Positions 1-11,281 of a stretch of DNA of 24,418 nt are shown piece by piece (position 1 is the stretch's first letter; each line of letters opens with the position of its first letter). The notes beneath the pieces are model-generated. The model had not been told where the DNA came from. It worked only from the letters and a program-made list of their open reading frames with translations, and made no database searches. This DNA comes from Eubacteriales bacterium (GTDB lineage Bacteria > Bacillota > Clostridia > Oscillospirales > CAG-272): the NCBI GenBank assembly GCA_045644105.1, contig JAZRGI010000168.1, positions 1 through 24,418 of the forward strand, given 5' to 3'. Made by a program: the position numbers and the translations under genes.

Positions 1-1
1 G

Positions 2-2818
2 GAACGAAACGAAGTAAACAAAAGCATCGAGATGTTGCCCGAAAAGGTACGGCAGATCATTCATCTGCACTACTTTGAGGATCTTTCCATTGCGGAGATC
101 GCCGATCGGATGCGTATTTCCGAGGGAACGGTCAAGCGGCAACTTCACGATGGACGAAAACGAATCAGAAAGGAACTTTGCGCGATGAATGAAAAGTATA
201 GTGATACACTTGTTGAGCGTGTTATGAAAAAGGTTGAAGAACTGAAATTGTGGCAGGTCAAAAACGATAAGAGCGGTTTTGAAAAGGTCTATTCGCAGGT
301 GCTTCGCGAGGTAGAGGAGCTTCCCGAATGTGTCGAAAAGCAACACGCGCTTGCCGACGTTCTGATGCGCGGTTGGTGGTGGTTGCCCGGCGAAAAGAAC
401 GACGCGTTGTTTGCCCGCATTGCCAATGCCGCTATGGAGGGTAAGAATGAGGAGGTCATGACCTTTATTGTTACCCGTGAGGATTACAAAGTGAACGGCG
501 GCAACGCGCGTATCGAGTTTATCCGTGAAAAGCAGATCCCGCGTCTTGAACAGGCGGGCTTTGTCAAGACGCTTGCTCGCGAATGGTTTTGGCTTGGCAG
601 AGAGTTATTCGGCAAGGGAAAGACCGAGGAGGGCAGTGCCGCATACGACAAGGCGGAGGAAATTCTTGGCGCATCGGATGCCTACCGTGTGTTGGTGCCC
701 TATGCTCGCAGAATGGAGGAAGAGCTACTCACACGCTATCAGGAAAAGACAAAAGAGCGTTACCGTGTCGGAGGCGAGGTGAACGAGATCCGCATGATCG
801 ACGGCAAGGCTCGCTATTGGCAAACGATCGAGGTGATCAAGGGCTATCTTTGCTCGGTCGATCGCACGGCGAATGCGATTTTCCGCAACGCATCGGGGTG
901 TGACGCAAGCTTTTTTGCCGACGTTCCGCTTGGTGGTCAGTCGATAGGCTCTGATGGCAGCACCTTGCGCTATCTTTCGGATGGTGAAACGGTGGAAACG
1001 CCCGCGGGTTGCTTTGACGGTTGTCAGATTTGGGAGGTCAGACGTTGGAGCGATTGGTCGGAGAAGGTCGTCTGCAAAACCTATTATAAGGAGGGCGTCG
1101 GCATTGTCCGTCAGGATCATATCGCCGACGGTGCAACCGTGGTTCACACGCTCAATGCTTATGAAATCAAAGGCGGTAGCGGTTTGTTACCCTTCCATGC
1201 GGGAAACACTTGGACGTACGCCTCCGATTATTCACCCGATGCGATATTTGACGAGCTGCAGTTTACGGTTGCCTATGCCGACGAGGGGCGCGTGTTGATT
1301 GGTTGTTGGGACAACGTTGAGAGAATGAAATACGACGAGGAATCGTGGTTGGATGCCGTGCAGGAGATCGCCAACGAATACTGTCACTCTCAAAAAAGCG
1401 GAAGCGAGAAGATCTGTGACGTATATCCCGCGATTGAGCGTGCCGAGCGACTTGCCGCAACGCCTATGCAAAAGGCTTATACCAAAGCGGCGGCATCGGT
1501 AGCAAGAAGAATATTGGCAACCGATCCAACCTTCAACCCCGATCATACGGCTACGGGACATTGGAATTTCTTTACCAGATGCTACGTCCAAAAGAAAGCC
1601 GATTCTCTTTGTTGGACAGGATACAATCCCCGTTGGTCGTTTGAGTGGAAGTGGATGGGCACGGTGGCACATGCCGACTGGCCGATACTGTACAACGATA
1701 TTTTGGGGATTTTGCAGGATGCAACAAATTGTATTTGGTCGGACGAGTGGTGCATCGGTGCCTCGCCCGTTGTCGAATACACCAAGTGGGACAGAACCGT
1801 TAAGACGCAGATTACCTGCGAGAATGGCGGAACGGTTACCACGAAAGCCGGAACCTTTGAAAACTGCTTCAAGCTCTGTCTTGATATCGGCGGTATGGCA
1901 GATGGATGGTCGTATCGTGGTGGTAACAAGGTTTACTATTTTGCCGAAGGAATCGGAATCGTTCGTACCGAGAATGAATATTGCGGTGGCGCAAGAACGG
2001 CGGTTTACGAGCTGACCTCTTACGAGGGCGTTGGCGAAGGATTTATGCCTCTTGCTGACGGTCTTGTGCGTCGATATGATGCACTAAATCTGACCGACGG
2101 TTTTGTGGGAGCGGTAGAATACACCTGCGTTGCTGATGAGGACGGAGATATTGTTGTATTTGCAGATCGCACGGGTATTCGTGAGCTTCCGCCTCCCATT
2201 ACCGAGTATTCTGTGATTCAAGGAGAGATGATTGAGCAGAAACTATGGAATGAGGGAAAATGGAAGGAAGGGCATATGAAGTACGGTGCCAACAACTTCC
2301 ATCTTATGCTCCACCTGCTTGCAAGACCGAGCCGTAATCGAAATAATGCAAAAAGATCGATTGAGATCAATGGCTTCTACATGAATATGATGGAGCTGCT
2401 CGGCGAAAACGGCATCGTTCCGCCTGCGTGGTATAATCTGTATGCTTGGACGGCCACTGTGAAATCGGCGGCATTGTTCGGTGACGGACAAAAGGAAGAG
2501 GGTTATGCAATGCTTGATACTGTCTTGAACTATTGCGAGTTGATCTCTCAAAACAAGAAGGGGGATCTGCTTGACACCGGAAAAGCAGAACTTCTTGGAG
2601 GATCAAAATACGAATATAAAAAATGCGTTATCGTACTTCCTGACGGTTCCAAGGAGCTGATTTCGTATGATTATCGAATGGAGTTTGATGCGAGCAATTT
2701 TGTTTATTGTCTTACTGCCCGTAGCGGTTGGGAATGGTTCAATCCCGTTCGCAATGAGGAGCGTTTCAAGGAATACGTAGAGCGTGCCAAGAAAATGGCA
2801 GACAGCATTAAGAAATGA
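2..2818 (+). CDS. ECF-type sigma-70 factor (region 4 visible, 5'-partial) with ~870-aa C-terminal extension
   Basis: The frame is open from the window edge (ERNEVNKSIEMLPEK...), so the true start lies upstream. LPEKVRQIIHLHYFEDLSIAEIADRMRISEGTVKRQLHDGRKRIRKEL matches the sigma-70 region 4.2 HTH pattern. Region 2 is not visible. TPR-like helices and two copies of a TxxTxAGxFxxC...YxxEGxGIVR beta-rich unit follow. Confidence 0.8.
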   Translation, partial: ERNEVNKSIEMLPEKVRQIIHLHYFEDLSIAEIADRMRISEGTVKRQLHDGRKRIRKELCAMNEKYSDTLVERVMKKVEELKLWQVKNDKSGFEKVYSQVLREVEELPECVEKQHALADVLMRGWWWLPGEKNDALFARIANAAMEGKNEEVMTFIVTREDYKVNGGNARIEFIREKQIPRLEQAGFVKTLAREWFWLGRELFGKGKTEEGSAAYDKAEEILGASDAYRVLVPYARRMEEELLTRYQEKTKERYRVGGEVNEIRMIDGKARYWQTIEVIKGYLCSVDRTANAIFRNASGCDASFFADVPLGGQSIGSDGSTLRYLSDGETVETPAGCFDGCQIWEVRRWSDWSEKVVCKTYYKEGVGIVRQDHIADGATVVHTLNAYEIKGGSGLLPFHAGNTWTYASDYSPDAIFDELQFTVAYADEGRVLIGCWDNVERMKYDEESWLDAVQEIANEYCHSQKSGSEKICDVYPAIERAERLAATPMQKAYTKAAASVARRILATDPTFNPDHTATGHWNFFTRCYVQKKADSLCWTGYNPRWSFEWKWMGTVAHADWPILYNDILGILQDATNCIWSDEWCIGASPVVEYTKWDRTVKTQITCENGGTVTTKAGTFENCFKLCLDIGGMADGWSYRGGNKVYYFAEGIGIVRTENEYCGGARTAVYELTSYEGVGEGFMPLADGLVRRYDALNLTDGFVGAVEYTCVADEDGDIVVFADRTGIRELPPPITEYSVIQGEMIEQKLWNEGKWKEGHMKYGANNFHLMLHLLARPSRNRNNAKRSIEINGFYMNMMELLGENGIVPPAWYNLYAWTATVKSAALFGDGQKEEGYAMLDTVLNYCELISQNKKGDLLDTGKAELLGGSKYEYKKCVIVLPDGSKELISYDYRMEFDASNFVYCLTARSGWEWFNPVRNEERFKEYVERAKKMADSIKK

Positions 2819-3036
2819 AAAACAAGTTACCCATAGGTGAATATCTGCTCGGCTATCGTAAGGAGCACGGAGTTACACAAGCGGCACTTGGAGCGCTTTT
2901 GGGCGTCAGTGCGGCTGCCGTTTCCAAATGGGAACGGCAGCAATCCTATCCCGACATCTTTCTGCTACCCGACATTTCAAAGCTTCTCGGAATCTCGATT
3001 GACATTTTGCTGGGAACGAAAAGCATAAGTCGATAA
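2815..3036 (+). CDS. XRE/Cro-CI family HTH transcriptional regulator (73 aa)
   Basis: IGEYLLGYRKEHGVTQAALGALLGVSAAAVSKWERQQSYPDIFLLPDISKLLGISIDILL is a classic HTH_3 pattern. It overlaps the upstream stop by ATGA (2815-2818). Confidence 0.92.
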   Translation: MKNKLPIGEYLLGYRKEHGVTQAALGALLGVSAAAVSKWERQQSYPDIFLLPDISKLLGISIDILLGTKSISR

Positions 3037-3080
3037 TTTTTCAGTCATGACCACTAGCCGTGCCGGTGGTTTTCAGAATA

Positions 3081-3121
3081 CAAAAAATCCCCGCCGAGCA
3101 TTTGCACGCTCGGTGGGGATT
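3081..3121. terminator. Intrinsic terminator, probably bidirectional
   Basis: Stem aatccccgccgagc (3086-3099) / gctcggtggggatt (3108-3121) with one G-U pair. An A-run on the left gives a minus-strand U-tract, and the sequence to the right is T-rich. Confidence 0.75.
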
Positions 3122-3284
3122 GCAGTTTGTTTTTTCTTTTTCGTTTTTTTCACGGCCGTTTTGTTTGCTTGTTTTGGCGCCTTATTTTTTTGTGCCGTCG
3201 TTGGCTTTGATGCTTTTGCGGTTTTGGGAGATGTCTCCGCGGTTTCGGCGGTGGTTCATAAATATCAATTCGAACAATTATAGT

Positions 3285-3334
3285 AAAAAACAAATCCGAA
3301 CCAATTTCGATTTACGAAACAGTTCGGATTTGTT
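3285..3334 (-). terminator. Terminator hairpin after the distal tRNA-Glu 3'-end copy
   Basis: 13-bp perfect inverted repeat aacaaatccgaac (3289-3301) / gttcggatttgtt (3322-3334), followed on the minus strand by a T-run. Confidence 0.75.
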
Positions 3335-3355
3335 ACGTTTGGTGACCCGTAGCAG

Positions 3356-3460
3356 AATCAAGAACTGAAACGCGCACGATAATGCGGTGATATACCGTAG
3401 ACAACATTGGTGCGCGTTATGGCATAACCCTTGCAGGCTCGGGTTTGCACAGTTCGATTC
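3356..3460 (-). ncRNA. Putative structured element, unit B (three-way junction; RNA or ssDNA)
   Basis: P1 3362-3367/3450-3455, P3 3370-3377/3410-3417 with a 32-nt loop, P2 3426-3430/3441-3445. Same topology as unit A with compensatory changes. Strand is inferred from the upstream tRNA operon. Confidence 0.55.
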
Positions 3461-3475
3461 ATAAAGATTACAAAG

Positions 3476-3523
3476 CAAAAGAAAAGAACGACATTGCTAA
3501 CGCAACATCGTTCTTTTCTTTTG
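3476..3523 (-). terminator. Terminator hairpin after the proximal tRNA-Glu 3'-end copy
   Basis: 16-bp perfect inverted repeat caaaagaaaagaacga (3476-3491) / tcgttcttttcttttg (3508-3523). Confidence 0.8.
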
Positions 3524-3540
3524 TTGGTGACCCGTAGCAG

Positions 3541-3642
3541 AATCAGGACTGAAGCGTGCGCGTTAATGGTGGATTCATTTTAAGAAAATCATAGCGCACG
3601 CTATGGACGAAAATCCCGTTGGGATTTTGTCGCAGTCCAATT
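3541..3642 (-). ncRNA. Putative structured element, unit A (three-way junction; RNA or ssDNA)
   Basis: P1 3546-3551/3633-3638, P3 3554-3561/3594-3601 with a 32-nt loop, P2 3610-3617/3621-3628. The junctions aa and tatgg are identical to unit B. Confidence 0.55.
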
Positions 3643-3659
3643 ATTTAACGAATGATTAA

Positions 3660-3703
3660 CAAATAAAAACAGACTCCGCTAAAGCGAAGTCTGTTTTCAT
3701 TTG
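3660..3703 (-). terminator. Terminator of the tRNA-Met/tRNA-Glu operon
   Basis: Long imperfect hairpin caaataaaaacagactccgc-taaa-gcgaagtctgttttcatttg immediately 3' of the CCA. The minus strand ends in gtttttatttg. Confidence 0.8.
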
Positions 3704-3704
3704 T

Positions 3705-3779
3705 TGGTGACCCGTAGCAGAATCGAACTGCTGTTACCGCCGTGAAAGGGCGGTGTCTTAACCGCTTGACCAACGGGCC
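3705..3779 (-). tRNA. tRNA-Glu (TTC)
   Basis: Reverse complement is GGCCCGTTGGTCAAGCGGTTAAGACACCGCCCTTTCACGGCGGTAACAGCAGTTCGATTCTGCTACGGGTCACCA. Anticodon arm CCGCC-CT-TTC-AC-GGCGG, T-loop TTCGATT, encoded CCA. Confidence 0.98.
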
Positions 3780-3856
3780 TGGTAGCGGGAATTGGACTTG
3801 AACCCATGACCTACCGGGTATGAACCGGTTGCTCTAGCCAACTGAGCTATCCCGCC
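3780..3856 (-). tRNA. tRNA-Met (CAT), most likely elongator
   Basis: Reverse complement is GGCGGGATAGCTCAGTTGGCTAGAGCAACCGGTTCATACCCGGTAGGTCATGGGTTCAAGTCCAATTCCCGCTACCA. It has a paired G1 and no 3xG-C initiator anticodon stem. The loop UUCAUAC resembles Bacillota elongator Met rather than Ile2. Confidence 0.93.
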
Positions 3857-3876
3857 AAAATTACCAACGCTTGAAT

Positions 3877-3905
3877 ATTATATCACACGTTGATCGATTT
3901 GTCAA
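3877..3905 (-). promoter_or_regulatory. Sigma-A promoter of the tRNA operon
   Basis: Minus strand TTGACA-17 nt-TATAAT with TGn extended -10, about 20 nt upstream of tRNA-Met. Confidence 0.9.
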
Positions 3906-4057
3906 CCCCTTTTTTTGAAAAAAATAAAAAATATTTTGCGGTCTTCCGGGGGCATTGTTGGTGTACCCAATCTCCGGCATTGTTTTGCCTTTATCGGTGA
4001 AATTTTTCGTGGCATTTGATTGGTATATCGTCGTCTATGGGAATGTCCTCTCTCATG

Positions 4058-4092
4058 AAAAAAGGCGCGATTTCCCAACGGATACCGCGCCT
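4058..4092 (-). terminator. Intrinsic terminator of the DUF1508 gene
   Basis: aggcgcg/cgcgcct stem followed on the minus strand by a T6 tract. Confidence 0.7.
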
Positions 4093-4115
4093 CTGCGATG
4101 ATAGAATTGTTTGTC

Positions 4116-5246
4116 TTATGCCTGGGGAGCTTCCAACTCAATGGTTGCCGAGATAATGAACTTCTTTACCGATTCGATAATCTTTTCGCATTGCGGTTTG
4201 TTATCATACGATTCTCCGATAAAGGAGGGGGCAGACCCGATGTTCTTGAGAACGTAACGGTAGTTGCCGAACTTATCTCTGTCTACAAAGAAGTTACCTA
4301 CGTAAGCGGCACGTTTGAAAGAATCAATACCGTCACGGCAAGCCTTTTCGTTTGCGTAGTAGCGGCTTGCATAGAGAATCTGACCGTTATTGGCGGTGAG
4401 ATAGAAGCAATATTGCTTTTCTCCCTCCGCACAGATCTCAAACTTACCCATCTTCTGTGCCTGAGCCTCTGCCTTTTCAACCGCCTTCCAGTCGATGTCA
4501 TCGGGAGTTCTCTTACTGAGCTTTGCCGATTCATAAGCGGCAAGTGCCTGTTTATCGGGAACATAGCGAATGACCTTTGCGTTGCAGGCGAATTTCTTAA
4601 CCGACTCAACGCACTTCATGCATTGTTCCTTCGTCGTATAGTTTTCGCCGTAGTACTTGCGCGCCAGAATGAAGCGGTAGCGATTGTACTTGTCAATTCT
4701 AACGTCGAACTTACCTTCTGAAACGGTTTTCTTAAAGGTCTTAATGCCGTTAAGCGCGCCGAGAAGGGTGGTGAAGCTGGGGCTATCAAAAAGCACCTGT
4801 CCGTTGTTGGCAACCAGATAGAAGTGATAACCGTCTACCTCAAGCTCAAACTCATACTTACCGCACACCTTTTGTCCGCTTTTTAAGATCTCTTCATCGG
4901 CTTCCGCAATTGCCAGATCAAATGCCGCGCGAATGTCATCATCGGTTGTCGTCATGAAAAATGGACGTGCCGTAGTTGTTACGGTCGGCTTACTGGTATT
5001 GGTTGCCGTCTTGGCAGTCGCGGTCTGCTTTGCGGGTGCTGTCGGTTTGGCGGGGGCAACGTTTTTTGCCGACACCTCGGACGTTGCGGCGGCTTTTGGG
5101 GTTTCAACCGGTTGCGTTTCTGCGGGTACTTTTACGTTCTTGATCGAAGGCCCTTCAGGCGTTGCGGCGTTTGATTGCTCGGCTACGATCGCCTCTTGCT
5201 CCACCTTTTGTTTTTCTTTTTTTGCTTTTCTCTTGAACAGTCCCAT
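4116..5246 (-). CDS. DUF1508 (YegP/UPF0339-like) repeat protein with a long low-complexity N-terminus
   Basis: Units such as YHFYLVANNGQVLFDSPSFTT and YCFYLTANNGQILYASRYY, plus two partner units ending in ESVKK. The N-terminal ~125 aa are Lys/Ala/Thr/Pro-rich. RBS ggagg. Confidence 0.85.
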   Translation of the reverse strand: MGLFKRKAKKEKQKVEQEAIVAEQSNAATPEGPSIKNVKVPAETQPVETPKAAATSEVSAKNVAPAKPTAPAKQTATAKTATNTSKPTVTTTARPFFMTTTDDDIRAAFDLAIAEADEEILKSGQKVCGKYEFELEVDGYHFYLVANNGQVLFDSPSFTTLLGALNGIKTFKKTVSEGKFDVRIDKYNRYRFILARKYYGENYTTKEQCMKCVESVKKFACNAKVIRYVPDKQALAAYESAKLSKRTPDDIDWKAVEKAEAQAQKMGKFEICAEGEKQYCFYLTANNGQILYASRYYANEKACRDGIDSFKRAAYVGNFFVDRDKFGNYRYVLKNIGSAPSFIGESYDNKPQCEKIIESVKKFIISATIELEAPQA

Positions 5247-5289
5247 AAAATACCTCCAACAAAATAAAATCGATAAAAGTTTTCACTCT

Positions 5290-5318
5290 ATTTTAACACA
5301 ATCGAAATGAATTGTCAA
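5290..5318 (-). promoter_or_regulatory. Sigma-A promoter for the DUF1508 gene
   Basis: Minus strand TTGACA-17-TAAAAT with extended TG. Confidence 0.75.
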
Positions 5319-5367
5319 TCCAATTTGGAAAAAGAAGATTATATTTTTTCCGTTTTATAAAAAAATA

Positions 5368-5396
5368 TTGAAATGAAGGATCAAATATGCTATAAT
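5368..5396 (+). promoter_or_regulatory. Sigma-A promoter for the EEP operon
   Basis: TTGAAA-17-TATAAT with extended TG. It is divergent from the promoter at 5290-5318. Confidence 0.75.
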
Positions 5397-5467
5397 GTTA
5401 TTGATTCTACCGAACGAAACAAAGACTCTGATAAAATTTGGAAACTACACAAAGGAGAATTTTAAAA

Positions 5468-6679
5468 ATGAAGCTGAACCAGAATGATCTGAAAAAGTTT
5501 TGCATTGTTTATGCGTCGGATGCGCCCGAAATGGATCGCATTGCGCAACAACTGACTCAACTGCTCAAGGAGAAGCTTGGCGTTGTACTCGAGTGCTATT
5601 CGGATGCCTACATATCGGAGCGCGAGTATGAGATCCTGCTCGGTTGCACAAAGCGTGCTTTTAGCCGTGCTTGCTATACCGAGGGCGGTGTTGCTCCTAT
5701 GACCTATCGTGTCATCCTTGAAGGTACCAAGCTTCAGATTGCCTGTGGCGGTGCCGCATCTGCAACTGCGTTTTTGAAGGCGCTTGAGCAGATGATTGGC
5801 GACGGTGCGGTGCCGGAGGAGTTGGTGGACGGTAGTTATCTGGAAAACGAGTTGACCGGTCTTTCGATCGTTCCTTTGACCGAGGGCAGCACCCTTCGTG
5901 TGATGACCTCCAACGTCCTGACACACTGTTGGGAGGGAAATCGCGGCTATCCTTCGGTTGCTCACCGTGCAGAGATGTATGCCGCAACTCTGAACGCATA
6001 TCAACCCAACCTCATCGGTATTCAAGAAACCGACCTTCCCTGGATCGACTATCTGCCCTATTATTTTGAGGCGTTGCGCGTCTATTCGGGCGGTAAGCTT
6101 GACTATGCTTGCCTTGAAAACAGCTACCAGATGCCCGATGGTACGTGGATTCCCAACTATACCTCTCTGATCTACCGCAAGGATCGTTTTGACGTATTGG
6201 AGAGTGGTGCCGTTGCATATCCCTACGCCGTCAAGGAACTGAAGTTGAAGTGCCGCACCTGTACGTGGGCGATTTACAAGGATCGTATGGACGGTGAGCT
6301 TTACGGTGTATTCAACACACACTGGTCGTTTACCGCGGAAGAAACCGAGATCAGTATCCGCATGGGGCTTGAAACGGTGCATGAGAAGCAGGCAAAGTAT
6401 CCCGGTCTTCACGTATTCTGCACGGGAGATTTCAACAATCACCTTAACAAGTCGATCGAGAAATTCAGTGAACGCAGCGGTTTTGGCGATTCCAAAGACG
6501 AGGCGAAGAAGAATGGATCGCTCATCAACGAGAATCCCGGTATTCCCGAAAAAATTTACATCGACCACGTCTTTTTCAACGAGGGTGTAACGGTTACACG
6601 CCATGAAACGATTGATGCGCCCTTTACCGCAAAAATGTCCGACCATATGTTCCAATACGGAGATTTTGTACTCCAATAA
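5468..6679 (+). CDS. Endonuclease/exonuclease/phosphatase (EEP) family protein with one GH20b-like N-terminal alpha/beta domain, no signal peptide
   Basis: EEP motifs LRVMTSNV, GIQET, GDFN, IDHV, SDH. Start moved to ATG 5468, which follows the RBS aaaggag. Confidence 0.85.
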   Translation: MKLNQNDLKKFCIVYASDAPEMDRIAQQLTQLLKEKLGVVLECYSDAYISEREYEILLGCTKRAFSRACYTEGGVAPMTYRVILEGTKLQIACGGAASATAFLKALEQMIGDGAVPEELVDGSYLENELTGLSIVPLTEGSTLRVMTSNVLTHCWEGNRGYPSVAHRAEMYAATLNAYQPNLIGIQETDLPWIDYLPYYFEALRVYSGGKLDYACLENSYQMPDGTWIPNYTSLIYRKDRFDVLESGAVAYPYAVKELKLKCRTCTWAIYKDRMDGELYGVFNTHWSFTAEETEISIRMGLETVHEKQAKYPGLHVFCTGDFNNHLNKSIEKFSERSGFGDSKDEAKKNGSLINENPGIPEKIYIDHVFFNEGVTVTRHETIDAPFTAKMSDHMFQYGDFVLQ

Positions 6680-6697
6680 GCAAATAGGAGAGTCGAT

Positions 6698-8434
6698 ATG
6701 ATGAAAAAATTCTGCAGATTGCTCTGTCTATTGCTTGCCATTGCAACATTGTTGTCGTTATCGGTATCCTGCCGCGATGAGGACATCTTGTCGGACGAAG
6801 AGCCGGAGGAGCAGGGAATTGTCATTGTCAGCAAGGGAGTTCCCCATTATACCATTGTTTACGCCAAGACACTCAATAGCGAGTGTGTGGAACTTGCCTA
6901 CAAATTGCAGGACGAGATTCGTGAACGCGTTGGTGTCACGGTACAGATCAAGGTTGAGGATGATCAGACCGATGCCGATGCAAAGGAAATCCTGATTGGC
7001 GACACCGCTTATGAAGAAAGTAAAACTGTTTCCAAAATGATTGGGAAAAAGCAATATGCCATTATGGCAGAGGGAAACAAGATTGTTGTTGCCGCAAAAA
7101 GCAGTTTTATACTTGAAGAAGCCCTCTATTACTTTATCGAGCAGTTGATTCCGCGCAACGTTAAGACGGTCAGTGGAAAGTTTTCACTTTATCATGAGGA
7201 CATTATTGCTGATTACGAAGAGCTGTCCGAACCCCTCTTTAACGGAGAGAGTCTGTCCAAGTATTCTATCGTATACTCCAAAAATGTTCCGGGCATGGAG
7301 GATCTCGCCGCAGATCTTGCAAAGCGTATTAAGAGTGCGCTCAAGTTGGATATTGACTACTATCCCGACACCTTCCGTGAGGAAACCGAATACGAGATTC
7401 TGGTTGGTTTGACCAACCGTGACTACAGTGTAGCGCTTTTTGCCGACGGAAACGTTCCGTTGATGTCCCACAAATTGGTGGTTGACGGAACCAAAATTCA
7501 CTTTGTGGCTGCAGGCGGATACTCCATGGGAGAATTGGTTTCGAAGTTTGTTTTAGGCTACGTGCTGGGCACCAATTTACGCAATCTGCGTGACGGTGTC
7601 TATATGGATACCGATCTGATGCCGATTCGCTCGCAAGCCTTGACCGAGGGAAGCACGCTTCGCGTTATGACCTCAAACGTGCTTGCGGACATTTGGGAGG
7701 ATAACCGCGGATATCCGTCGATTGAGGCGCGTGCCGAAATGTATGCCGCAACGTTGAGCGTTTACCGTCCCGATCTGGTTGGTATTCAGGAAACCGACCA
7801 GGCTTGGCTCAACACCTTGCCGTACTATCTTGGGTATTTGAAAACTCATTTTTCTCTTGATTACGAGTGGATCGAAAACACCTTCAAAACGACGTCGGGA
7901 AGCAAAGTTCCCAATATGAGTTCATTGATCTACCGCAAGGACGTCTTTTCTTTGGTGAGTAGCGGAGCGCAGGAGTTTTCCTTTGCCAACGATAAAAAGT
8001 ATAAGATCCGTGTTGCCACGTGGGCGGTGTTTACACATAAGCAGAGCAACGAAAAGTATGCGCTTGTCAACACGCACTGGTCGTTTACTGCGGAGGAGGG
8101 CGCGATCTCCGTGGAAGAGGAGTGCGCTTTGATTGAGTCGCTCAAGAAAAAATATGACGGATTACACGTTTTTTGTACGGGTGACTTCAACAACCACTTG
8201 AACAGTTCCTTTGGACTTTTCAAGACGACAAGTGGATTGACCGATTCCAAAGAGGCGGCAGACGAAAACGGCGTATTGATCAATAGGAATGCAGGAATTC
8301 CCGAAAAGATCTACATTGATCACGTTTTGTTCAATGACGGAATCACAGTAACGCGACATGAAACGATCGAGCATGCCTATGCAAGCAAGATGTCCGACCA
8401 CTTGCCGCAGTACGGTGACTTTATTGTAAATTAA
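6698..8434 (+). CDS. Lipoprotein with two GH20b-like N-terminal domains and an EEP phosphoesterase domain
   Basis: Signal peptide MMKKFCRLLCLLLAIATLLSLSVS-C. Two IVY...EIL(I/V)GxT domains. EEP motifs MTSNV, GIQET, GDFN, IDHV, SDH. Confidence 0.87.
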   Translation: MMKKFCRLLCLLLAIATLLSLSVSCRDEDILSDEEPEEQGIVIVSKGVPHYTIVYAKTLNSECVELAYKLQDEIRERVGVTVQIKVEDDQTDADAKEILIGDTAYEESKTVSKMIGKKQYAIMAEGNKIVVAAKSSFILEEALYYFIEQLIPRNVKTVSGKFSLYHEDIIADYEELSEPLFNGESLSKYSIVYSKNVPGMEDLAADLAKRIKSALKLDIDYYPDTFREETEYEILVGLTNRDYSVALFADGNVPLMSHKLVVDGTKIHFVAAGGYSMGELVSKFVLGYVLGTNLRNLRDGVYMDTDLMPIRSQALTEGSTLRVMTSNVLADIWEDNRGYPSIEARAEMYAATLSVYRPDLVGIQETDQAWLNTLPYYLGYLKTHFSLDYEWIENTFKTTSGSKVPNMSSLIYRKDVFSLVSSGAQEFSFANDKKYKIRVATWAVFTHKQSNEKYALVNTHWSFTAEEGAISVEEECALIESLKKKYDGLHVFCTGDFNNHLNSSFGLFKTTSGLTDSKEAADENGVLINRNAGIPEKIYIDHVLFNDGITVTRHETIEHAYASKMSDHLPQYGDFIVN

Positions 8435-8440
8435 GCAGAT

Positions 8441-8479
8441 GGCGGACGTTTTTATTTCATAAAGACCGTCCGCCTTTTT
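8441..8479 (+). terminator. Intrinsic terminator
   Basis: ggcggacg (8441-8448) / cgtccgcc (8467-8474) followed by ttttt. Confidence 0.7.
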
Positions 8480-8534
8480 AGAAAGTGCGGTTGCCGAAGA
8501 GGGGAACCGTCAACACTAAAAAGGAGATAAAACC

Positions 8535-9434
8535 ATGAAGCTTTCTACCTCTACGGGCGATTTTGCCGCTTATACGCAACATCAAAGCGAGGCGATCGGA
8601 TGGATTGCGCAGGCGGGATTCCGTTATATTGATTACAATTTTGCTACCGATTGCGCGCGTGGCAACGGTATTTACGGCGGTGACTTTGAAACCTATGTTG
8701 ACGGTATCAAACGACGCGCCGACGAGCTTGGCGTTGCCTTTGTGCAGGCGCACGCTCCGGCGGGACAACCCTTTGTCCGCGGTTGGGATGAGTTGGTCGA
8801 GCAGACGGTTCTTTGCGTCAAGGCGTGTGCCAAGCTCGGGGTTAAGAATCTTGTCGTTCATTCCGCCTATGCTCCCGACATGACGGTGGAGGAAACCATT
8901 GAAAAAAACAAGGAATTCTATACCCCTATTCTGCAGGCGGCAGAGGAGCATGACGTTTATATCCTCACCGAGAACTTTAACAAAATGACCAAGCCGAACG
9001 TCTTCTGGATCGACAACGCAACCGATCTGTTGCGCCTGATCGAATACGTTGACCATCCGCTTTTCCAAGCGGTTTGGGATACGGGACACGCAAATCTGCA
9101 GGAGCTTGCGCAGGATGCCGAGCTACGGTTGCTCGGTTCCCATGTCAAGGCACTGCACGTGCAGGACAATCTTGGTGACCGCGATGCCCATCTTGCCCCC
9201 TATATGGGAACCCTGAATCTGGATGCCGTCATGCACGGCTTGCAGGAGATCGGCTTTAACGGATACTTCAACTTTGAGGTTGGCCCATTCTTTACCCAAG
9301 CGGGACGCCGCAGAGATTACGAGGCGGATAAGCGCTTGAAGCTTCCTCCGATCGAGCTTCGGTTGAAGGCAGAGGAGCTGCTTTATGAGATCGGCAAATG
9401 CGCGCTTCAAGCTTACGGTTGCTTTGAGGAATAA
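8535..9434 (+). CDS. Sugar phosphate isomerase/epimerase family (xylose-isomerase-like TIM barrel, AP_endonuc_2)
   Basis: Metal-ligand motifs LTEN, WDTGHAN, LHVQDN, DAHLAP, FNFEV. RBS aaggag. Confidence 0.88.
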   Translation: MKLSTSTGDFAAYTQHQSEAIGWIAQAGFRYIDYNFATDCARGNGIYGGDFETYVDGIKRRADELGVAFVQAHAPAGQPFVRGWDELVEQTVLCVKACAKLGVKNLVVHSAYAPDMTVEETIEKNKEFYTPILQAAEEHDVYILTENFNKMTKPNVFWIDNATDLLRLIEYVDHPLFQAVWDTGHANLQELAQDAELRLLGSHVKALHVQDNLGDRDAHLAPYMGTLNLDAVMHGLQEIGFNGYFNFEVGPFFTQAGRRRDYEADKRLKLPPIELRLKAEELLYEIGKCALQAYGCFEE

Positions 9435-9457
9435 CTATATTTTTTACGGCGTTTACA

Positions 9458-9483
9458 AAAAGGCGGTTGACAGACCGCCTTTT
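9458..9483 (+). terminator. Intrinsic terminator whose stem-loop contains the next -35 box
   Basis: aaaaggcggt-tgacag-accgcctttt. Confidence 0.75.
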
Positions 9484-9496
9484 CCTATGGTATAAT
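9467..9496 (+). promoter_or_regulatory. Sigma-A promoter for the third EEP gene
   Basis: TTGACA (9467-9472)-18 nt-TATAAT (9491-9496) with extended TG. Confidence 0.75.
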
Positions 9497-9571
9497 AAAT
9501 TTACTTGAGGCGCGTTGCGGGCGCGGAACGCCTGTAACGTGTTGTCATGCTAATGAAAGCGAGGAACGAAA

Positions 9572-11281
9572 ATGAAGAACTTCTGCAAATGGTTGTGTTT
9601 TCTTTTGGCTTTGGTGATGTTGGTGTCCTGTACCAACGGTGCGCCGGAGGAGCCGACGCCAAAGGATGAGGGAACTCTGATCGTCAGACAGGGAATTCCG
9701 CAGTATTCGATTGTATATGAAGAGGGATCCAACTATGTCGATCTGATCAACCGCGTTGCGGACACGGTCAAGGAATATACGGGTGCACAACTTACGGTCA
9801 AGGAAGAATCCTCCGAGCAGGATGCAAATGCAAAGGAAATTCTGATCGGTTCTACCAAGTATGAGGAATCGGTTGAGGCAAAAAAAGAGCTGAAAAAGAA
9901 TGAATACGTCATCAAGGCGGTCGGCAATAAGATCGTTATCGTCGGAGCTAATGACGATGCACTGGAGGATGCGCTTTACTACGTAAAGGACGAACTGATC
10001 CCCAAAAATGCAAAACGTGTTGACGGAAAAGCCATGCTATATCACGAAGACTATGAAGGAACCTTTGTAGCGCCGACAGAGATTCTGTTTAACGGTGTAC
10101 CGATTTCCGAGTTCAGTGTGGTTTATTCTAAAACGGTTCCCGAAATAGAAGCGCTTGCTCAGACACTCGCAACCCACATTGGCAATCTGTTTAAGAAAAC
10201 GGTTGCTTGCTACAGTGATGAGGAACCTGAGCGCGAGTACGAGATTTTGCTCGGATTGACCAACCGTGATTTCAGTGCCGAGTGTTTTGCCGAGGCGCAG
10301 GTGCCCTTGATGTCTTACCAATTGGTGGTTGCAGGCGACAAGGTTCAGTTTGCTTGCCCCGGTGCGTATTCTGCCAATGAAATGGTAACCGAGTTTCGTT
10401 CTGCCTATCTGATGGCGATCTCCTATCGCAATCTGCGTGACGGCGTCTATATGGATAAGAATCTGTTGACGGTAACCGAGCAACCTCTGACCGAGGGTAG
10501 CACGTTGCGCATTATGACTTCCAACATTCTTGCCGACCGTTGGGTGGGAGATCGAAACTATCCCTCTGTTGCAAAGCGCGCGGAGATGTACACGGCAACA
10601 CTAATGGTTTACCGTCCTTCTTTGATCGGTGTACAGGAAACCGATGATTTGTGGACCGTCCATCTTCCGTACTACATCGATTACCTGGGCGATTACCTGT
10701 ATATGAACTACGAATGGATCGAAAATACCTATCCGATCTCTCCCGGAAAAGTGGTTCCCAATATGACTTCCATTATTTATTCCAAGGATGAATTTACTTA
10801 CGTGGATAGCAGTATGCAGGAATTCAGTGCTTTTAATCATACTGCATATAAGCTTCGCGTTCTGACGTGGGGTATCTTTACGCATAAGGCATCCGGTGAG
10901 AAATACGCGTTGGTAAACACGCACTACGATGGTGATATCAAGTACGGTCCCGATGAAATCAAAGAGCAGGCGGCTCTTGTAACCAAGATCAAGAATAAGT
11001 ATTCGGGTATTCACGTTTTCTGTACGGGTGACTACAACAATCACGGCGGATATAATATCGGCGATCTCAAAAAGGCTCTGAATATGTTGACAACCAAAGA
11101 TATTGCAAAGACGAGCGGGACGCTGGTGAACGAGATACCGGGTATTCCGGAGGGTATCTACATCGACCATATCTTTACCGAAACGACCAACGTAGTTACC
11201 AGACATGAAACCATCGACGTCAATTTTGCGAGTATCCTTTCGGATCACCGTCTGCAGTACGCCGATATCATTGTAAAATAA
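9572..11281 (+). CDS. Lipoprotein with two GH20b-like N-terminal domains and an EEP phosphoesterase domain (paralog of 6698-8434)
   Basis: Signal peptide MKNFCKWLCFLLALVMLVS-C. Motifs LRIMTSNI, GVQET, GDYN, IDHI, SDH. Colinear similarity to 6698-8434. Confidence 0.87.
   Translation: MKNFCKWLCFLLALVMLVSCTNGAPEEPTPKDEGTLIVRQGIPQYSIVYEEGSNYVDLINRVADTVKEYTGAQLTVKEESSEQDANAKEILIGSTKYEESVEAKKELKKNEYVIKAVGNKIVIVGANDDALEDALYYVKDELIPKNAKRVDGKAMLYHEDYEGTFVAPTEILFNGVPISEFSVVYSKTVPEIEALAQTLATHIGNLFKKTVACYSDEEPEREYEILLGLTNRDFSAECFAEAQVPLMSYQLVVAGDKVQFACPGAYSANEMVTEFRSAYLMAISYRNLRDGVYMDKNLLTVTEQPLTEGSTLRIMTSNILADRWVGDRNYPSVAKRAEMYTATLMVYRPSLIGVQETDDLWTVHLPYYIDYLGDYLYMNYEWIENTYPISPGKVVPNMTSIIYSKDEFTYVDSSMQEFSAFNHTAYKLRVLTWGIFTHKASGEKYALVNTHYDGDIKYGPDEIKEQAALVTKIKNKYSGIHVFCTGDYNNHGGYNIGDLKKALNMLTTKDIAKTSGTLVNEIPGIPEGIYIDHIFTETTNVVTRHETIDVNFASILSDHRLQYADIIVK

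What the first reader, a model, noticed from the sequence alone, without database searches (positions are those of the whole stretch)
3362..3638. Covarying three-way-junction structure shared by both array units
Seen: both cores (93 and 94 nt) have the same layout. P1 is ggactg/cagtcc in unit A and gaactg/cagttc in unit B (1 compensatory pair). An invariant aa junction follows. P3 is gcgtgcgc/gcgcacgc in A and acgcgcac/gtgcgcgt in B (3 compensatory pairs in 8 bp). An invariant tatgg junction follows. P2 is aaaatccc/gggatttt in A and aaccc/gggtt in B. Four compensatory changes with conserved unpaired junctions indicate selection on structure rather than on sequence. I cannot match it to an Rfam family I know. 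Inference: a functional ncRNA, or an ssDNA recombination or transposition substrate.
Basis: seen in the sequence. Interest (0 to 1): 0.82.

Follow-up and report, generated by a model that had tools for sequence, protein, structure and literature searches.

The report
Folded repeat modules trailing tRNA genes
The two units are copies of an apparently undescribed ~105-base folded DNA/RNA module found hundreds of times in one genus of gut Clostridia, always just behind a tRNA or tmRNA gene; its closing stem is built from a copy and an inverted copy of that gene's own T-loop, so it behaves like a tiny insertion element aimed at tRNA genes.

Summary
Observation confirmed and much extended. In 80 distinct homologues 97% of pair cells are standard pairs and 19 of 25 pairs show compensatory changes. 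No Rfam 15 family matches.

The context changes the reading:
- The array flank is the 3' end of tRNA-Glu(UUC), so the units lie on the minus strand, downstream of tRNA-Met/tRNA-Glu.
- A covariance model finds about 300 copies in 61 of 78 genomes of the genus, and almost none elsewhere in the order.
- Every first copy sits 49-64 nt behind a tRNA or tmRNA gene (10 kinds), on the same strand.
- The P1 3' strand plus tail copies that gene's T arm and 3' end, with 1-2 extra bases in the T loop. The P1 5' strand is its reverse complement.
- Copy number at one tRNA varies from 0 to 3 between species, and an empty site exists.

Best reading (about 0.5): a cargo-less integrative module (terminator + spacer + folded unit) inserted by recombination within the tRNA 3' segment. 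The enzyme is unknown. An RNA role is not excluded.

This scan noted analogous families earlier in Patescibacteria. I found no published description.

The parts
3877..3905 (-). Promoter of the tRNA-Met/tRNA-Glu operon (TTGACA-17-TATAAT with TG)
   Evidence: Consensus scan, 12 of 12 matches. A pattern match only.
3780..3856 (-). tRNA-Met(CAU)
   Evidence: ARAGORN; Rfam tRNA, 62.6 bits.
3705..3779 (-). tRNA-Glu(UUC), the gene the array is attached to. Its last 20 nt (3705-3724) are the repeated 'flank'.
   Evidence: ARAGORN; Rfam, 62.8 bits; repeat family D1.
3665..3698 (-). Terminator hairpin T_A, the first part of module A. It now serves as the terminator of tRNA-Glu.
   Evidence: Inverted repeat I1 and the sequence itself. 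67 of 74 family members have such a hairpin within 85 nt upstream.
3536..3643 (-). Unit A, the folded core (three-way junction). + strand coordinates: P1 5' strand 3633-3643; P2 about 3607-3632; P3 3554-3561 with 3594-3601; P1 3' strand 3540-3551 with the bulged base at 3545.
   Evidence: CM hit, 88.9 bits, E 1e-21; fold; alignments A1 and A2.
3525..3544 (-). Tail of unit A, a 20 of 20 copy of the last 20 nt of tRNA-Glu (GATTCTGCTACGGGTCACCA)
3476..3523 (-). Terminator hairpin T_B, the first part of module B
   Evidence: Inverted repeat I2, 22-nt arms, 91% complementary; terminator scan.
3351..3460 (-). Unit B, the folded core. + strand coordinates: P1 5' strand 3450-3460; P2 about 3423-3449; P3 3370-3377 with 3410-3417; P1 3' strand 3355-3367 with the bulge at 3360-3361.
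   Evidence: CM hit, 99.3 bits, E 1e-24; fold. Its core is 71-72% identical to the single units of G027 and G017.
3340..3359 (-). Tail of unit B, a 20 of 20 copy of the tRNA-Glu 3' end. On the insertion model this is the displaced original 3' end.
3289..3334 (-). Original terminator and flank of tRNA-Glu
   Evidence: Inverted repeat I5. The same flank directly follows tRNA-Glu in G019, which has no unit, and follows the unit in G048.

Best explanation
Each 'array unit' is one copy of a small, protein-less insertion module. Read on the tRNA strand, the module consists of:
- an intrinsic-terminator hairpin;
- a 12-25-nt spacer;
- a ~105-nt three-way-junction core.

The core's closing helix P1 pairs an 11-nt reverse complement of the neighbouring tRNA's T-loop region (5' strand) with a direct copy of that region carrying 1-2 extra bases in the T loop (3' strand). 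A copy of the rest of the tRNA 3' end follows.

Proposed mechanism:
1. Modules enter by recombination inside the segment shared with the tRNA gene (at least GATTCTSC, up to the last 20 nt).
2. The tRNA is rebuilt from the module's copy and receives the module's terminator.
3. The old 3' end is pushed downstream, behind the folded core.
4. Repeated entry next to the tRNA, plus unequal crossing-over between the short direct repeats, stacks modules into arrays.
5. Other elements, notably large-serine-recombinase (LSR) elements, later insert at the tail/terminator junctions and appear as 'cargo'.

Shown: the architecture, the covariation, the exclusive tRNA/tmRNA association, the match of P1 and tail to the neighbour, and presence/absence between species.

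Inferred: that entry is site-specific recombination by a trans-acting enzyme (not identified), that the fold on the tRNA-sense strand is what the enzyme reads, and that the newest module lies next to the tRNA.
For: - The flank is the tRNA-Glu 3' end.
- Empty site: in G019, tRNA-Glu is followed directly by the flank that follows unit B in the window. Seven further congeners have tRNA-Glu with no unit, and others have 1-3.
- The CM finds units in 61 of 78 genomes of the genus, up to 14 per genome. Many lie at contig ends, as repeats do. In the sampled order, only G048 outside the genus has them, so 2 of 151 genomes including the window's own.
- All 60 units with an upstream gene in the fetched locus follow a tRNA or tmRNA on the same strand. 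First units lie 49-64 nt after it, behind 10 gene kinds.
- The P1 3' strand and tail match the neighbour's T arm, even among the three T-stem variants of tRNA-Glu(UUC). The P1 5' strand is complementary to it. All 79 copies whose 3' strand was aligned in A2 have 1-2 extra bases in the T-loop copy.
- Core similarity does not follow target type: median identity is 0.51 for the same type and 0.49 for different types. One unit is chimeric, with a Glu-type 5' strand and a Lys-type 3' end.
- 67 of 74 units have a terminator-like hairpin upstream but only 40 of 78 downstream, which fits a terminator + unit module.
- No promoter-like site lies before the units.
- Unit B groups with the single units of G027 and G017, while the tRNA-proximal unit A has no close relative.
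- Wobble pairs favour the tRNA-sense strand: 72 G-U against 31 A-C overall, and 15 against 3 in P2.
Against: - No recombinase is tied to the units. IS110 transposases (7 of 78 genomes), Y1 transposases (14 of 78) and one LSR clade (28 of 78) do not track them. The own genome has no LSR homologue.
- No free or excised form was seen, and no copy in phage, plasmid or IMG/VR collections.
- A 165-185-bp circle is an awkward recombination substrate.
- Tails are often shorter than the full tRNA end. A module with such a tail could not rebuild a tRNA, so those copies must have entered at another unit or decayed since.
- Recombination alone does not explain why the part of P1 left of the extra base, and the 5' strand, match the local tRNA.
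- The strong, sequence-conserved P3 and the semi-conserved loop motif CACCGCAT would also suit an RNA-protein complex.
- Transcription could not be tested. No run covered the units.
Confidence: 0.5

Rival explanations
1. The unit is a functional non-coding RNA made from the tRNA operon transcript by read-through and processing, or from an unrecognised promoter. This would resemble the rtT/RttR RNA released from the E. coli tyrT transcript. Its T-arm-like helix and tRNA-like 3' tail would engage something that reads tRNA ends, or the tRNA itself.
For: - The fold is strongly conserved and covarying, with G-U pairs mainly on the tRNA-sense strand.
- P3 has a conserved sequence and its loop carries a semi-conserved motif.
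- The unit is always on the same strand as the tRNA, at a fixed distance.
- E. coli rtT units likewise end in the last 19 nt of tRNA-Tyr.
Against: - 67 of 74 units are preceded by a terminator-like hairpin, with only a 12-25-nt spacer.
- No promoter-like site was found in the window.
- Only about half are followed by a terminator.
- Copy number varies from 0 to 3 at one tRNA among congeners, and 17 of 78 genomes have none.
- Tails are often truncated.
- Rfam RF00391 (RtT) does not match, even at E <= 10.
- Expression is untested.
Confidence: 0.2
2. The units are passive scars. They would be the att-proximal ends of larger, now-deleted islands integrated in tRNA genes, later multiplied by unequal crossing-over. 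The fold would be inherited from the parent elements and do nothing in its present place.
For: - Arrays of partial tRNA 3' ends are the known signature of islands integrated in tRNA or tmRNA genes (PMC4383910, PMC9897764).
- Near-identical tandem pairs, as in G005, G008, G018 and G033, look like simple duplications.
- Decayed LSR gene ends lie next to some units.
Against: - About 300 copies have the same size and complete fold, with 97% of pair cells intact. Only three of the 81 aligned copies were partial, two of them cut by a contig end.
- No parent element carrying the unit inside its own att arm was found. The LSR elements seem to insert beside units rather than contain them.
- The unit was not found in phage or plasmid collections.
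Confidence: 0.12
3. The units are kept by the host, or by other elements, as landing pads. Each complete tail plus terminator recreates the tRNA-end/terminator junction that LSR elements use as attB, so incoming elements land behind the tRNA gene rather than in it.
For: - In six loci an LSR gene ends in a tRNA-end-like stretch (AGTTCGGA..TCACCA + A-run + terminator), followed directly by a terminator + unit module.
- In G008 the sequence after CACCAA is the same as after the next unit's tail.
- Diverse cargo lies between units: GH2/GH28 cluster, nuclease, sigma factor, DUF4379.
Against: - This does not need, or explain, the three-way junction or the inverted T-loop copy.
- Most arrays carry no cargo.
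- LSR presence does not track unit presence.
Confidence: 0.08

Closest known systems
Genomic islands and integrative elements at tRNA/tmRNA genes (tyrosine-integrase islands, T-loop or 3'-end sublocation; Islander database PMC4383910; tRNA fragments PMC9897764; tycheposons, bioRxiv 10.1101/2020.12.28.424599)
   Same: - The targets are tRNA and tmRNA genes.
- The gene's 3' segment is duplicated and the gene is rebuilt.
- Elements stack in tandem, and empty and filled sites both exist.
   Different: - Each module is 165-185 nt with no gene and no integrase.
- A conserved, covarying three-way junction abuts the repeat.
- There is an extra, inverted copy of the T-loop region.
- The T-loop copy is 1-2 nt longer than the real one.
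Folded single-strand recombination sites: integron attC sites, and the CTX-phage attP(+) hairpin used by XerCD (from my own knowledge)
   Same: - Two inverted copies of a target-like sequence, about 85-90 nt apart, pair into a stem with a bulge at its centre.
- Structure is conserved more than sequence.
- The sites separate promoter-less cassettes or tandem copies.
- One strand seems to be preferred.
   Different: - The R'/R'' consensus GTTRRRY/RYYYAAC is not met (GTTCNGA).
- The stem is only 11 bp and closes a three-way junction.
- There is no integron integrase and no dif-like site.
- The target is a tRNA T loop.
E. coli tyrT-tyrV rtT repeats (RttR RNA, Rfam RF00391)
   Same: - Tandem units of about 178 bp lie directly behind a tRNA gene on the same strand.
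- Each unit ends in the last 19 nt of that tRNA, starting inside the T loop.
- Each unit holds a GC-rich hairpin and a further T-arm fragment.
   Different: - No sequence or CM similarity; RF00391 is absent from the cmscan list at E <= 10.
- In E. coli the hairpin sits between the two halves of a direct T-arm copy, and there is no inverted T-loop copy closing a junction.
- It is one locus, not a dispersed family.
IS110/IS1111 bridge (seeker) RNAs and group II intron EBS-IBS pairing (from my own knowledge)
   Same: An internal 11-nt segment is complementary to the sequence on both sides of the point where the element's end meets the target. It changes with the target.
   Different: - No IS110 transposase or intron-type reverse transcriptase is next to the units. 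IS110 occurs in only 7 of 78 genomes.
- The guide-like strand pairs with the element's own end in a plain helix rather than in internal loops.
Analogous 'structured cassettes behind tRNA genes' noted earlier by this scan in Patescibacteria (e1-2052733, e1-4397417, e1-797756, e1-1105514, e1-1917257, e1-841090, e1-3333760, e1-988950)
   Same: - Small folded non-coding units lie only behind tRNA/tmRNA genes.
- They are bracketed by an inverted and a direct copy of the gene's 3' end.
- They are stacked, they vary between relatives, and they match no Rfam family.
   Different: - The phylum is different: Clostridia from herbivore gut.
- My model R1 found nothing in the one Saccharibacteria genome tried, so homology is not shown.
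- Those notes are unchecked AI notes.

Membership tests
tRNA/tmRNA-targeting integrative element (genomic island) | A direct repeat of the target gene's 3' segment flanks the insert, and the gene stays intact | tested here: met
   The 20-nt copies at 3705-3724, 3525-3544 and 3340-3359 are identical, and tRNA-Glu is intact.
tRNA/tmRNA-targeting integrative element (genomic island) | An empty site exists in relatives | tested here: met
   In G019, tRNA-Glu is joined directly to the flank that follows unit B. Seven further congeners have no unit at this tRNA.
tRNA/tmRNA-targeting integrative element (genomic island) | The element encodes its own integrase | tested here: not met
   The units are 165-185 nt with no plausible ORF. 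Pfam finds no integrase among the eight long ORFs scanned in window 1-11281, and the own genome has no homologue of the unit-adjacent LSRs.
Integron attC site / CALIN | R''/R' boxes RYYYAAC...GTTRRRY, with L boxes and extrahelical bases | tested here: not met
   The P1 strands read ..ATCGAAC.. and GTTCNGA. GTTRRRY fails at position 4. One bulge is present.
Integron attC site / CALIN | An integron integrase (IntI) is present in the genome or next to the array | not tested
   No IntI-specific search was run.
RtT/RttR RNA (Rfam RF00391) | A match to the covariance model | tested here: not met
   cmscan of 3000-4100 at E <= 10 lists 23 weak hits, and RF00391 is not among them.
Any Rfam 15 family | A score at or above the gathering threshold | tested here: not met
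   Only the two tRNAs pass.
IS110-type element with bridge RNA | An adjacent DEDD transposase (PF01548) | tested here: not met
   None in the own genome; over the cut-off in 7 of 78 genomes, against units in 61 of 78.
IS200/IS605 PATE or REP/RAYT | A Y1 HUH transposase in the genome; dispersed insertion without a long target repeat | tested here: not met
   PF01797 occurs in 14 of 78 genomes and not in the own genome. The units are restricted to tRNA/tmRNA flanks and carry a 9-20-nt target copy.
Structured ncRNA gene | Base pairs supported by covariation | tested here: met
Structured ncRNA gene | Transcribed as a discrete RNA | tested here: inconclusive
   No DNA or RNA run covered 3370-3700. 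There is no promoter-like site, and a terminator lies upstream in 67 of 74 units.

The most novel reading that the evidence does not exclude
The module chooses its target by base pairing. The 11-nt 5' strand of P1 would act as a guide (as RNA or as folded single-stranded DNA). It reads the T-loop region of one particular tRNA/tmRNA gene across the future joint, CAGTTC|GATTC. In the resting module it holds the element's own end against the copied target, with the extra base marking the joint. Changing the guide would retarget the module, which would explain one core family sitting behind ten different genes. This would be a protein-less, programmable insertion cassette served by an unidentified host or trans-acting enzyme. 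It may be shared in principle with the analogous families this scan noted in Patescibacteria.
Probability: 0.2. Interest if true: 0.92.

Novelty: new variant of a known kind. Interest (0 to 1): 0.72.

Why it matters
If the reading holds, tRNA-gene flanks in a common group of herbivore-gut Clostridia are populated by a miniature mobile module.
- Its recognition helix is written in the sequence of its target.
- It carries its own terminator, so the tRNA gene is repaired on entry.
- It creates stacked attachment points where larger elements then land (carbohydrate-use genes, nucleases, sigma factors, serine-recombinase elements).

That would add a new way in which tRNA genes organise genome plasticity. 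If targeting is by base pairing, it would also offer a compact natural model for programmable insertion. Similar architectures in Patescibacteria (earlier scan notes) and the old, unexplained E. coli rtT repeats suggest a wider class that has escaped description. Even on the most sober reading, this is a well-supported new structured repeat family that annotation pipelines and Rfam currently miss, and it breaks assemblies at tRNA loci.

Tried and rejected
- **Rfam.** Only the tRNAs pass at gathering thresholds, and nothing is credible at E <= 10 on 3000-4100.
- **Hammerhead or other small ribozymes, attC consensus.** The junction and R-box sequences do not fit.
- **IS110 bridge RNA and IS200/605 or RAYT links.** The transposase families are rare in the genus and absent from the own genome.
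- **LSR as the units' enzyme.** The LSR clade is in 28 of 78 genomes, including unit-free ones, and is missing from unit-rich ones. The junctions suggest that LSR elements insert beside units.
- **Recurrent neighbouring proteins.** Clustering all ORFs from the unit-bearing loci gave only the LSRs plus ordinary AraC and MATE paralogues.
- **Phage or plasmid origin.** BLAST against phages and plasmids gave no match. Two pattern scans of IMG/VR returned 94 loci, none with a CM hit.
- **Genome-wide 15-mer scan.** Nearly all hits were chance. It served to identify two congeners: Clostridia bacterium RGIG4228 (roe deer colon) and Eubacteriales bacterium fecal_MAG_404.
- **Metagenome scans.** Neither the array boundary nor a unit motif gave a match.
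- **Expression.** The RNA and DNA runs laid on the locus cover only the tRNAs and flanks.
- **Literature.** Three full-text searches returned results and a fourth call was rejected; with one paper read, none gave a description of such units.
- **Coding.** The ORFs overlapping the units (3278-3478 on the minus strand, 3431-3583 on the plus strand) are rejected. Homologues differ by indels that are not multiples of three and vary in the manner of helices.

Full report
**1.

On the + strand, unit A's core is 3546-3638 and unit B's is 3362-3455. Each folds on its own into the same three-way junction. The minus-strand z-scores against shuffles are -4.2 (A) and -2.2 (B). No Rfam 15 family reaches its threshold apart from two tRNAs, and a permissive scan of 3000-4100 gives only noise.

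**2. What the 'array flank' is**

ARAGORN and Rfam place tRNA-Met(CAU) at 3780-3856 and tRNA-Glu(UUC) at 3705-3779, both on the minus strand. The 20-nt sequence repeated at 3705-3724, 3525-3544 and 3340-3359 is the reverse complement of the last 20 nt of tRNA-Glu, GATTCTGCTACGGGTCACCA. That stretch runs from the second half of the T loop to CCA. The units therefore lie downstream of the tRNA operon on its own strand. The operon has a perfect sigma-70-type promoter at 3877-3905.

Read in that direction, the locus is:
- tRNA-Glu;
- hairpin T_A, spacer, unit A, tRNA-end copy;
- hairpin T_B, spacer, unit B, tRNA-end copy;
- the original terminator and flank.

In congener G019 the tRNA is joined directly to that same flank with no unit. 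This is an empty site. Other congeners have 0, 1, 2 or about 3 units at this tRNA.

**3. The fold is under selection**

I aligned 20 units from 14 genomes on the tRNA strand.
- RNAalifold returned P1 (which extends by GAATC/GATTC across a bulge), P2 and P3.
- 97.1% of cells are standard pairs and 13 of 25 pairs have double changes.
- None of 500 shuffles reaches these values, and slid controls give 22-47% paired.

A covariance model (R1) then collected 81 copies, 80 of them distinct. In these, 97.2% of cells are paired and 19 of 25 pairs show double changes, in 262 cells. This alignment is fitted to the model, so it leans towards the structure.

Two caveats on the helices:
- P2 varies freely in sequence.
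- P3 is nearly fixed in sequence and falls into two classes, AGCGTGCGC and AACGCGCGN. Its covariation therefore counts few independent events.

The P3 loop carries a semi-conserved motif, CACCGCAT.

Wobble pairs favour the tRNA-sense strand:

| Helix | G-U on the sense strand | A-C (G-U on the antisense strand) |
|---|---|---|
| All | 72 | 31 |
| P1 | 51 | 14 |
| P2 | 15 | 3 |
| P3 | 6 | 14 |

The folded strand is therefore probably the window's minus strand. This is suggestive, not decisive.

**4. It is a large family tied to tRNA genes**

R1 finds units in 61 of 78 genomes of the genus, up to 14 per genome and about 300 in all. Many lie at contig ends. The own genome has a third copy at the end of contig C254, behind tRNA-Lys. 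Among 151 genomes sampled from the order, only the own genome and G048 have hits.

Two congeners could be identified from public records: 'Clostridia bacterium RGIG4228' (roe deer colon) and 'Eubacteriales bacterium fecal_MAG_404'.

Position relative to tRNA genes:
- In the fetched loci, all 60 units with an upstream gene in reach follow a tRNA or tmRNA gene on the same strand.
- First units start 49-64 nt after the gene. Second units start at about 210-245 nt.
- The genes are Glu-UUC, Glu-CUC, Lys-UUU, Val-CAC, Gly-CCC, Pro-CGG, Ser-GCU, Ser-GGA, His and tmRNA.

**5. P1 is written in the neighbour's sequence**

In every case the 3' strand of P1 and the tail copy the neighbour's T arm and 3' end. 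Examples are GAGTTC-n-GACTCTCCGATGGGTCACCA behind tRNA-Lys and GGGTTC-n-GAGCCCCAT behind tRNA-His. The 5' strand is the reverse complement of the same 11 nt.

This holds even for the three T-stem variants of tRNA-Glu(UUC) that occur in different species. All 79 copies whose 3' strand was aligned in A2 have 1-2 extra bases between TTC and GA of the T-loop copy: A 34, T 31, C 6, and two bases in 9. These form the bulge in P1. One further copy, in G009, lacks the extra base.

Tails vary from 9 nt to the full 20 nt, so the constant shared segment is about GATTCTSC.

Core similarity (P2-P3) does not follow target type. Median identity is 0.51 within a type and 0.49 between types. One unit, in G083, is a chimera with a Glu-type 5' strand and a Lys-type 3' end. 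Cores have therefore moved or recombined between tRNA loci.

**6. The module includes a terminator**

67 of 74 units have a terminator-like hairpin within 85 nt upstream, but only 40 of 78 have one downstream. No promoter-like site precedes the units in the window. Relative to the empty site, each insertion adds one hairpin, one spacer, one core and one copy of the tRNA end. This is what integration into the shared segment would give: the tRNA is completed by the incoming copy and receives the incoming terminator.

Unit B's core is 71-72% identical to the single units of G027 and G017. The tRNA-proximal unit A has no close relative, with a best match of 60%. This fits entry next to the tRNA, but it is an inference.

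**7. Cargo and serine recombinases**

On some contigs two units are separated by 1.5-9.7 kb:

| Genome | Content between the units |
|---|---|
| G018 | GH2, GH28, ROK kinases, SIS, GDSL (9.6 kb) |
| G022 | Five small ORFs (3.7 kb) |
| G090 | A 184-aa ORF |
| G092 | A DUF4379 protein |
| G048 | An ECF sigma factor |

In G069, an ATPase and a YhcG nuclease lie upstream of a unit pair, with no tRNA or further unit within the 4.5 kb fetched upstream.

In six loci a large serine recombinase (LSR) gene ends immediately before a terminator + unit module. Its conserved C-terminal codons read AGTTCGGA..(17 nt)..TCACCA, followed by an A-run and a terminator. In G008 the sequence after CACCAA equals that after the next unit's tail. 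I read this as LSR elements inserting at the CCA/terminator boundary of tRNA genes or unit tails. They use the arrays rather than moving the units.

LSR presence (28 of 78 genomes) does not track unit presence. Neither do IS110 transposases (7 of 78) or Y1 transposases (14 of 78). Clustering all neighbouring ORFs revealed no other recurrent protein. The enzyme that places the units is unknown.

**8. What could not be settled**

- **Transcription.** The public runs that share words with the locus cover only the tRNAs and flanks.
- **A free form or a carrier.** None was found in the phage, plasmid, IMG/VR or JGI metagenome collections.

The choice between a DNA-level recombination site and an RNA therefore rests on indirect evidence. 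The upstream terminators, the missing promoter, the insertion polymorphism and the dispensability of the units all favour DNA. The sense-strand wobble pairs fit either RNA or single-stranded DNA.

**9. Comparison with known systems**

- **tRNA/tmRNA-targeting islands.** The units share the duplicated 3' segment, the rebuilt gene, the stacking and the empty sites. They lack an integrase and any gene, and they add a covarying junction and an inverted T-loop copy.
- **Integron attC sites and the CTX-phage attP(+) hairpin.** The units resemble these in pairing two inverted target-like sequences into a bulged stem. They fail the attC consensus and have no known partner enzyme.
- **E. coli rtT repeats behind tyrT-tyrV.** These are the nearest described look-alike by position. 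They are 178-bp units ending in the last 19 nt of tRNA-Tyr, starting inside the T loop, with a GC-rich hairpin between T-arm fragments. The build differs, and RF00391 does not match.

Earlier notes of this scan describe analogous, apparently undescribed families behind tRNA genes in Patescibacteria. Those notes are unchecked, and R1 found nothing in one Saccharibacteria genome. Common ancestry is therefore open.

**10. Verdict**

This is a real, strongly supported, apparently undescribed structured repeat family.
- Best reading, about 0.5: a miniature integrative module aimed at tRNA and tmRNA genes.
- RNA gene, about 0.2.
- Passive scars, about 0.12.
- Landing pads, about 0.08.

The most novel reading not excluded, at about 0.2, is that the 5' strand of P1 is a guide that selects the target tRNA by base pairing.

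Noticed in passing
L211:5156-6670 (G033:C2); L054:47-1009 (G083:C216); L059 (G009:C5); L316 (G009:C139); L317 (G061:C88); L006:63-368 (G008:C139): A clade of large serine recombinase genes ends in conserved codons (H/N)SSD..SP(T/N)K. The DNA reads like a tRNA T-loop-to-CCA end that is 5 nt too long, followed by an A-run and a terminator. A terminator + unit module follows directly. These elements seem to insert at the CCA/terminator boundary of tRNA genes or unit tails.
   Followed up: partly
L031:3262-3290 (G022:C95) and L212:4440-4470 (G069:C133): The same 29-nt stretch, AGTTCGATTTAGCTTGGCATTGGCTCACC, precedes a terminator + unit module in two species, with no recombinase gene in front. It may be the last remnant of a lost serine recombinase gene.
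   Followed up: no
L054:1045-1143 (G083:C216): A chimeric unit. The 5' strand of P1 is of the tRNA-Glu type (AAATCGAACTG). The 3' strand and tail are of the tRNA-Lys type (GAGTTCAGACTCTCCGATGG), which leaves 2-3 mismatches in P1.
   Followed up: partly
L316:1037-1135 (G009:C139): The only unit seen without the extra base in its T-loop copy (TTTGAGTTCGACTCTCCG). It lies next to a broken serine recombinase gene.
   Followed up: no
L031:6643-6715 (G022:C95); also L070, L018 and L088 downstream of tRNA genes: Short repeats of the type AATGAAG/CTTCATT, with about 22-nt spacing, cluster near several tRNA-proximal arrays. They could be protein-binding sites of other integrated elements.
   Followed up: no
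window 3182-3259 (-): A 25-codon ORF rich in Arg and Lys (MNHRRNRGDISQNRKSIKANDGTKK) lies just beyond the array. In E. coli the rtT repeats overlap the small basic Tpr ORF. This is probably coincidence.
   Followed up: no
window 2-2818 (+) and 2815-3036 (+): A 938-aa ORF begins with sigma-70 region 4 and carries a long extension with a DUF3108-like stretch. A 73-aa XRE-type HTH protein follows. In G048 an ECF sigma gene lies between two units, at L214:3231-4553.
   Followed up: no
L309:850-1540 (E. coli K-12, tyrV-rttR): Each 178-bp rtT unit holds a copy of the tRNA-Tyr T-arm 5' half (AGGTTCGA). A GC-rich hairpin of about 75 nt follows, then the last 19 nt of the tRNA (AATCC..CCA). The T-loop copy is therefore split by a structured insert.
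   Followed up: partly
L086:1718-3172 (G090:C79): The 1.4-kb insert between two tRNA-Gly units is flanked by the two halves of what looks like one terminator hairpin (AAAAAGAAGAGAGCCTC ... GAGGCTCTCTTCTTTTTT). It looks as if the insert had entered the loop of the hairpin.
   Followed up: no
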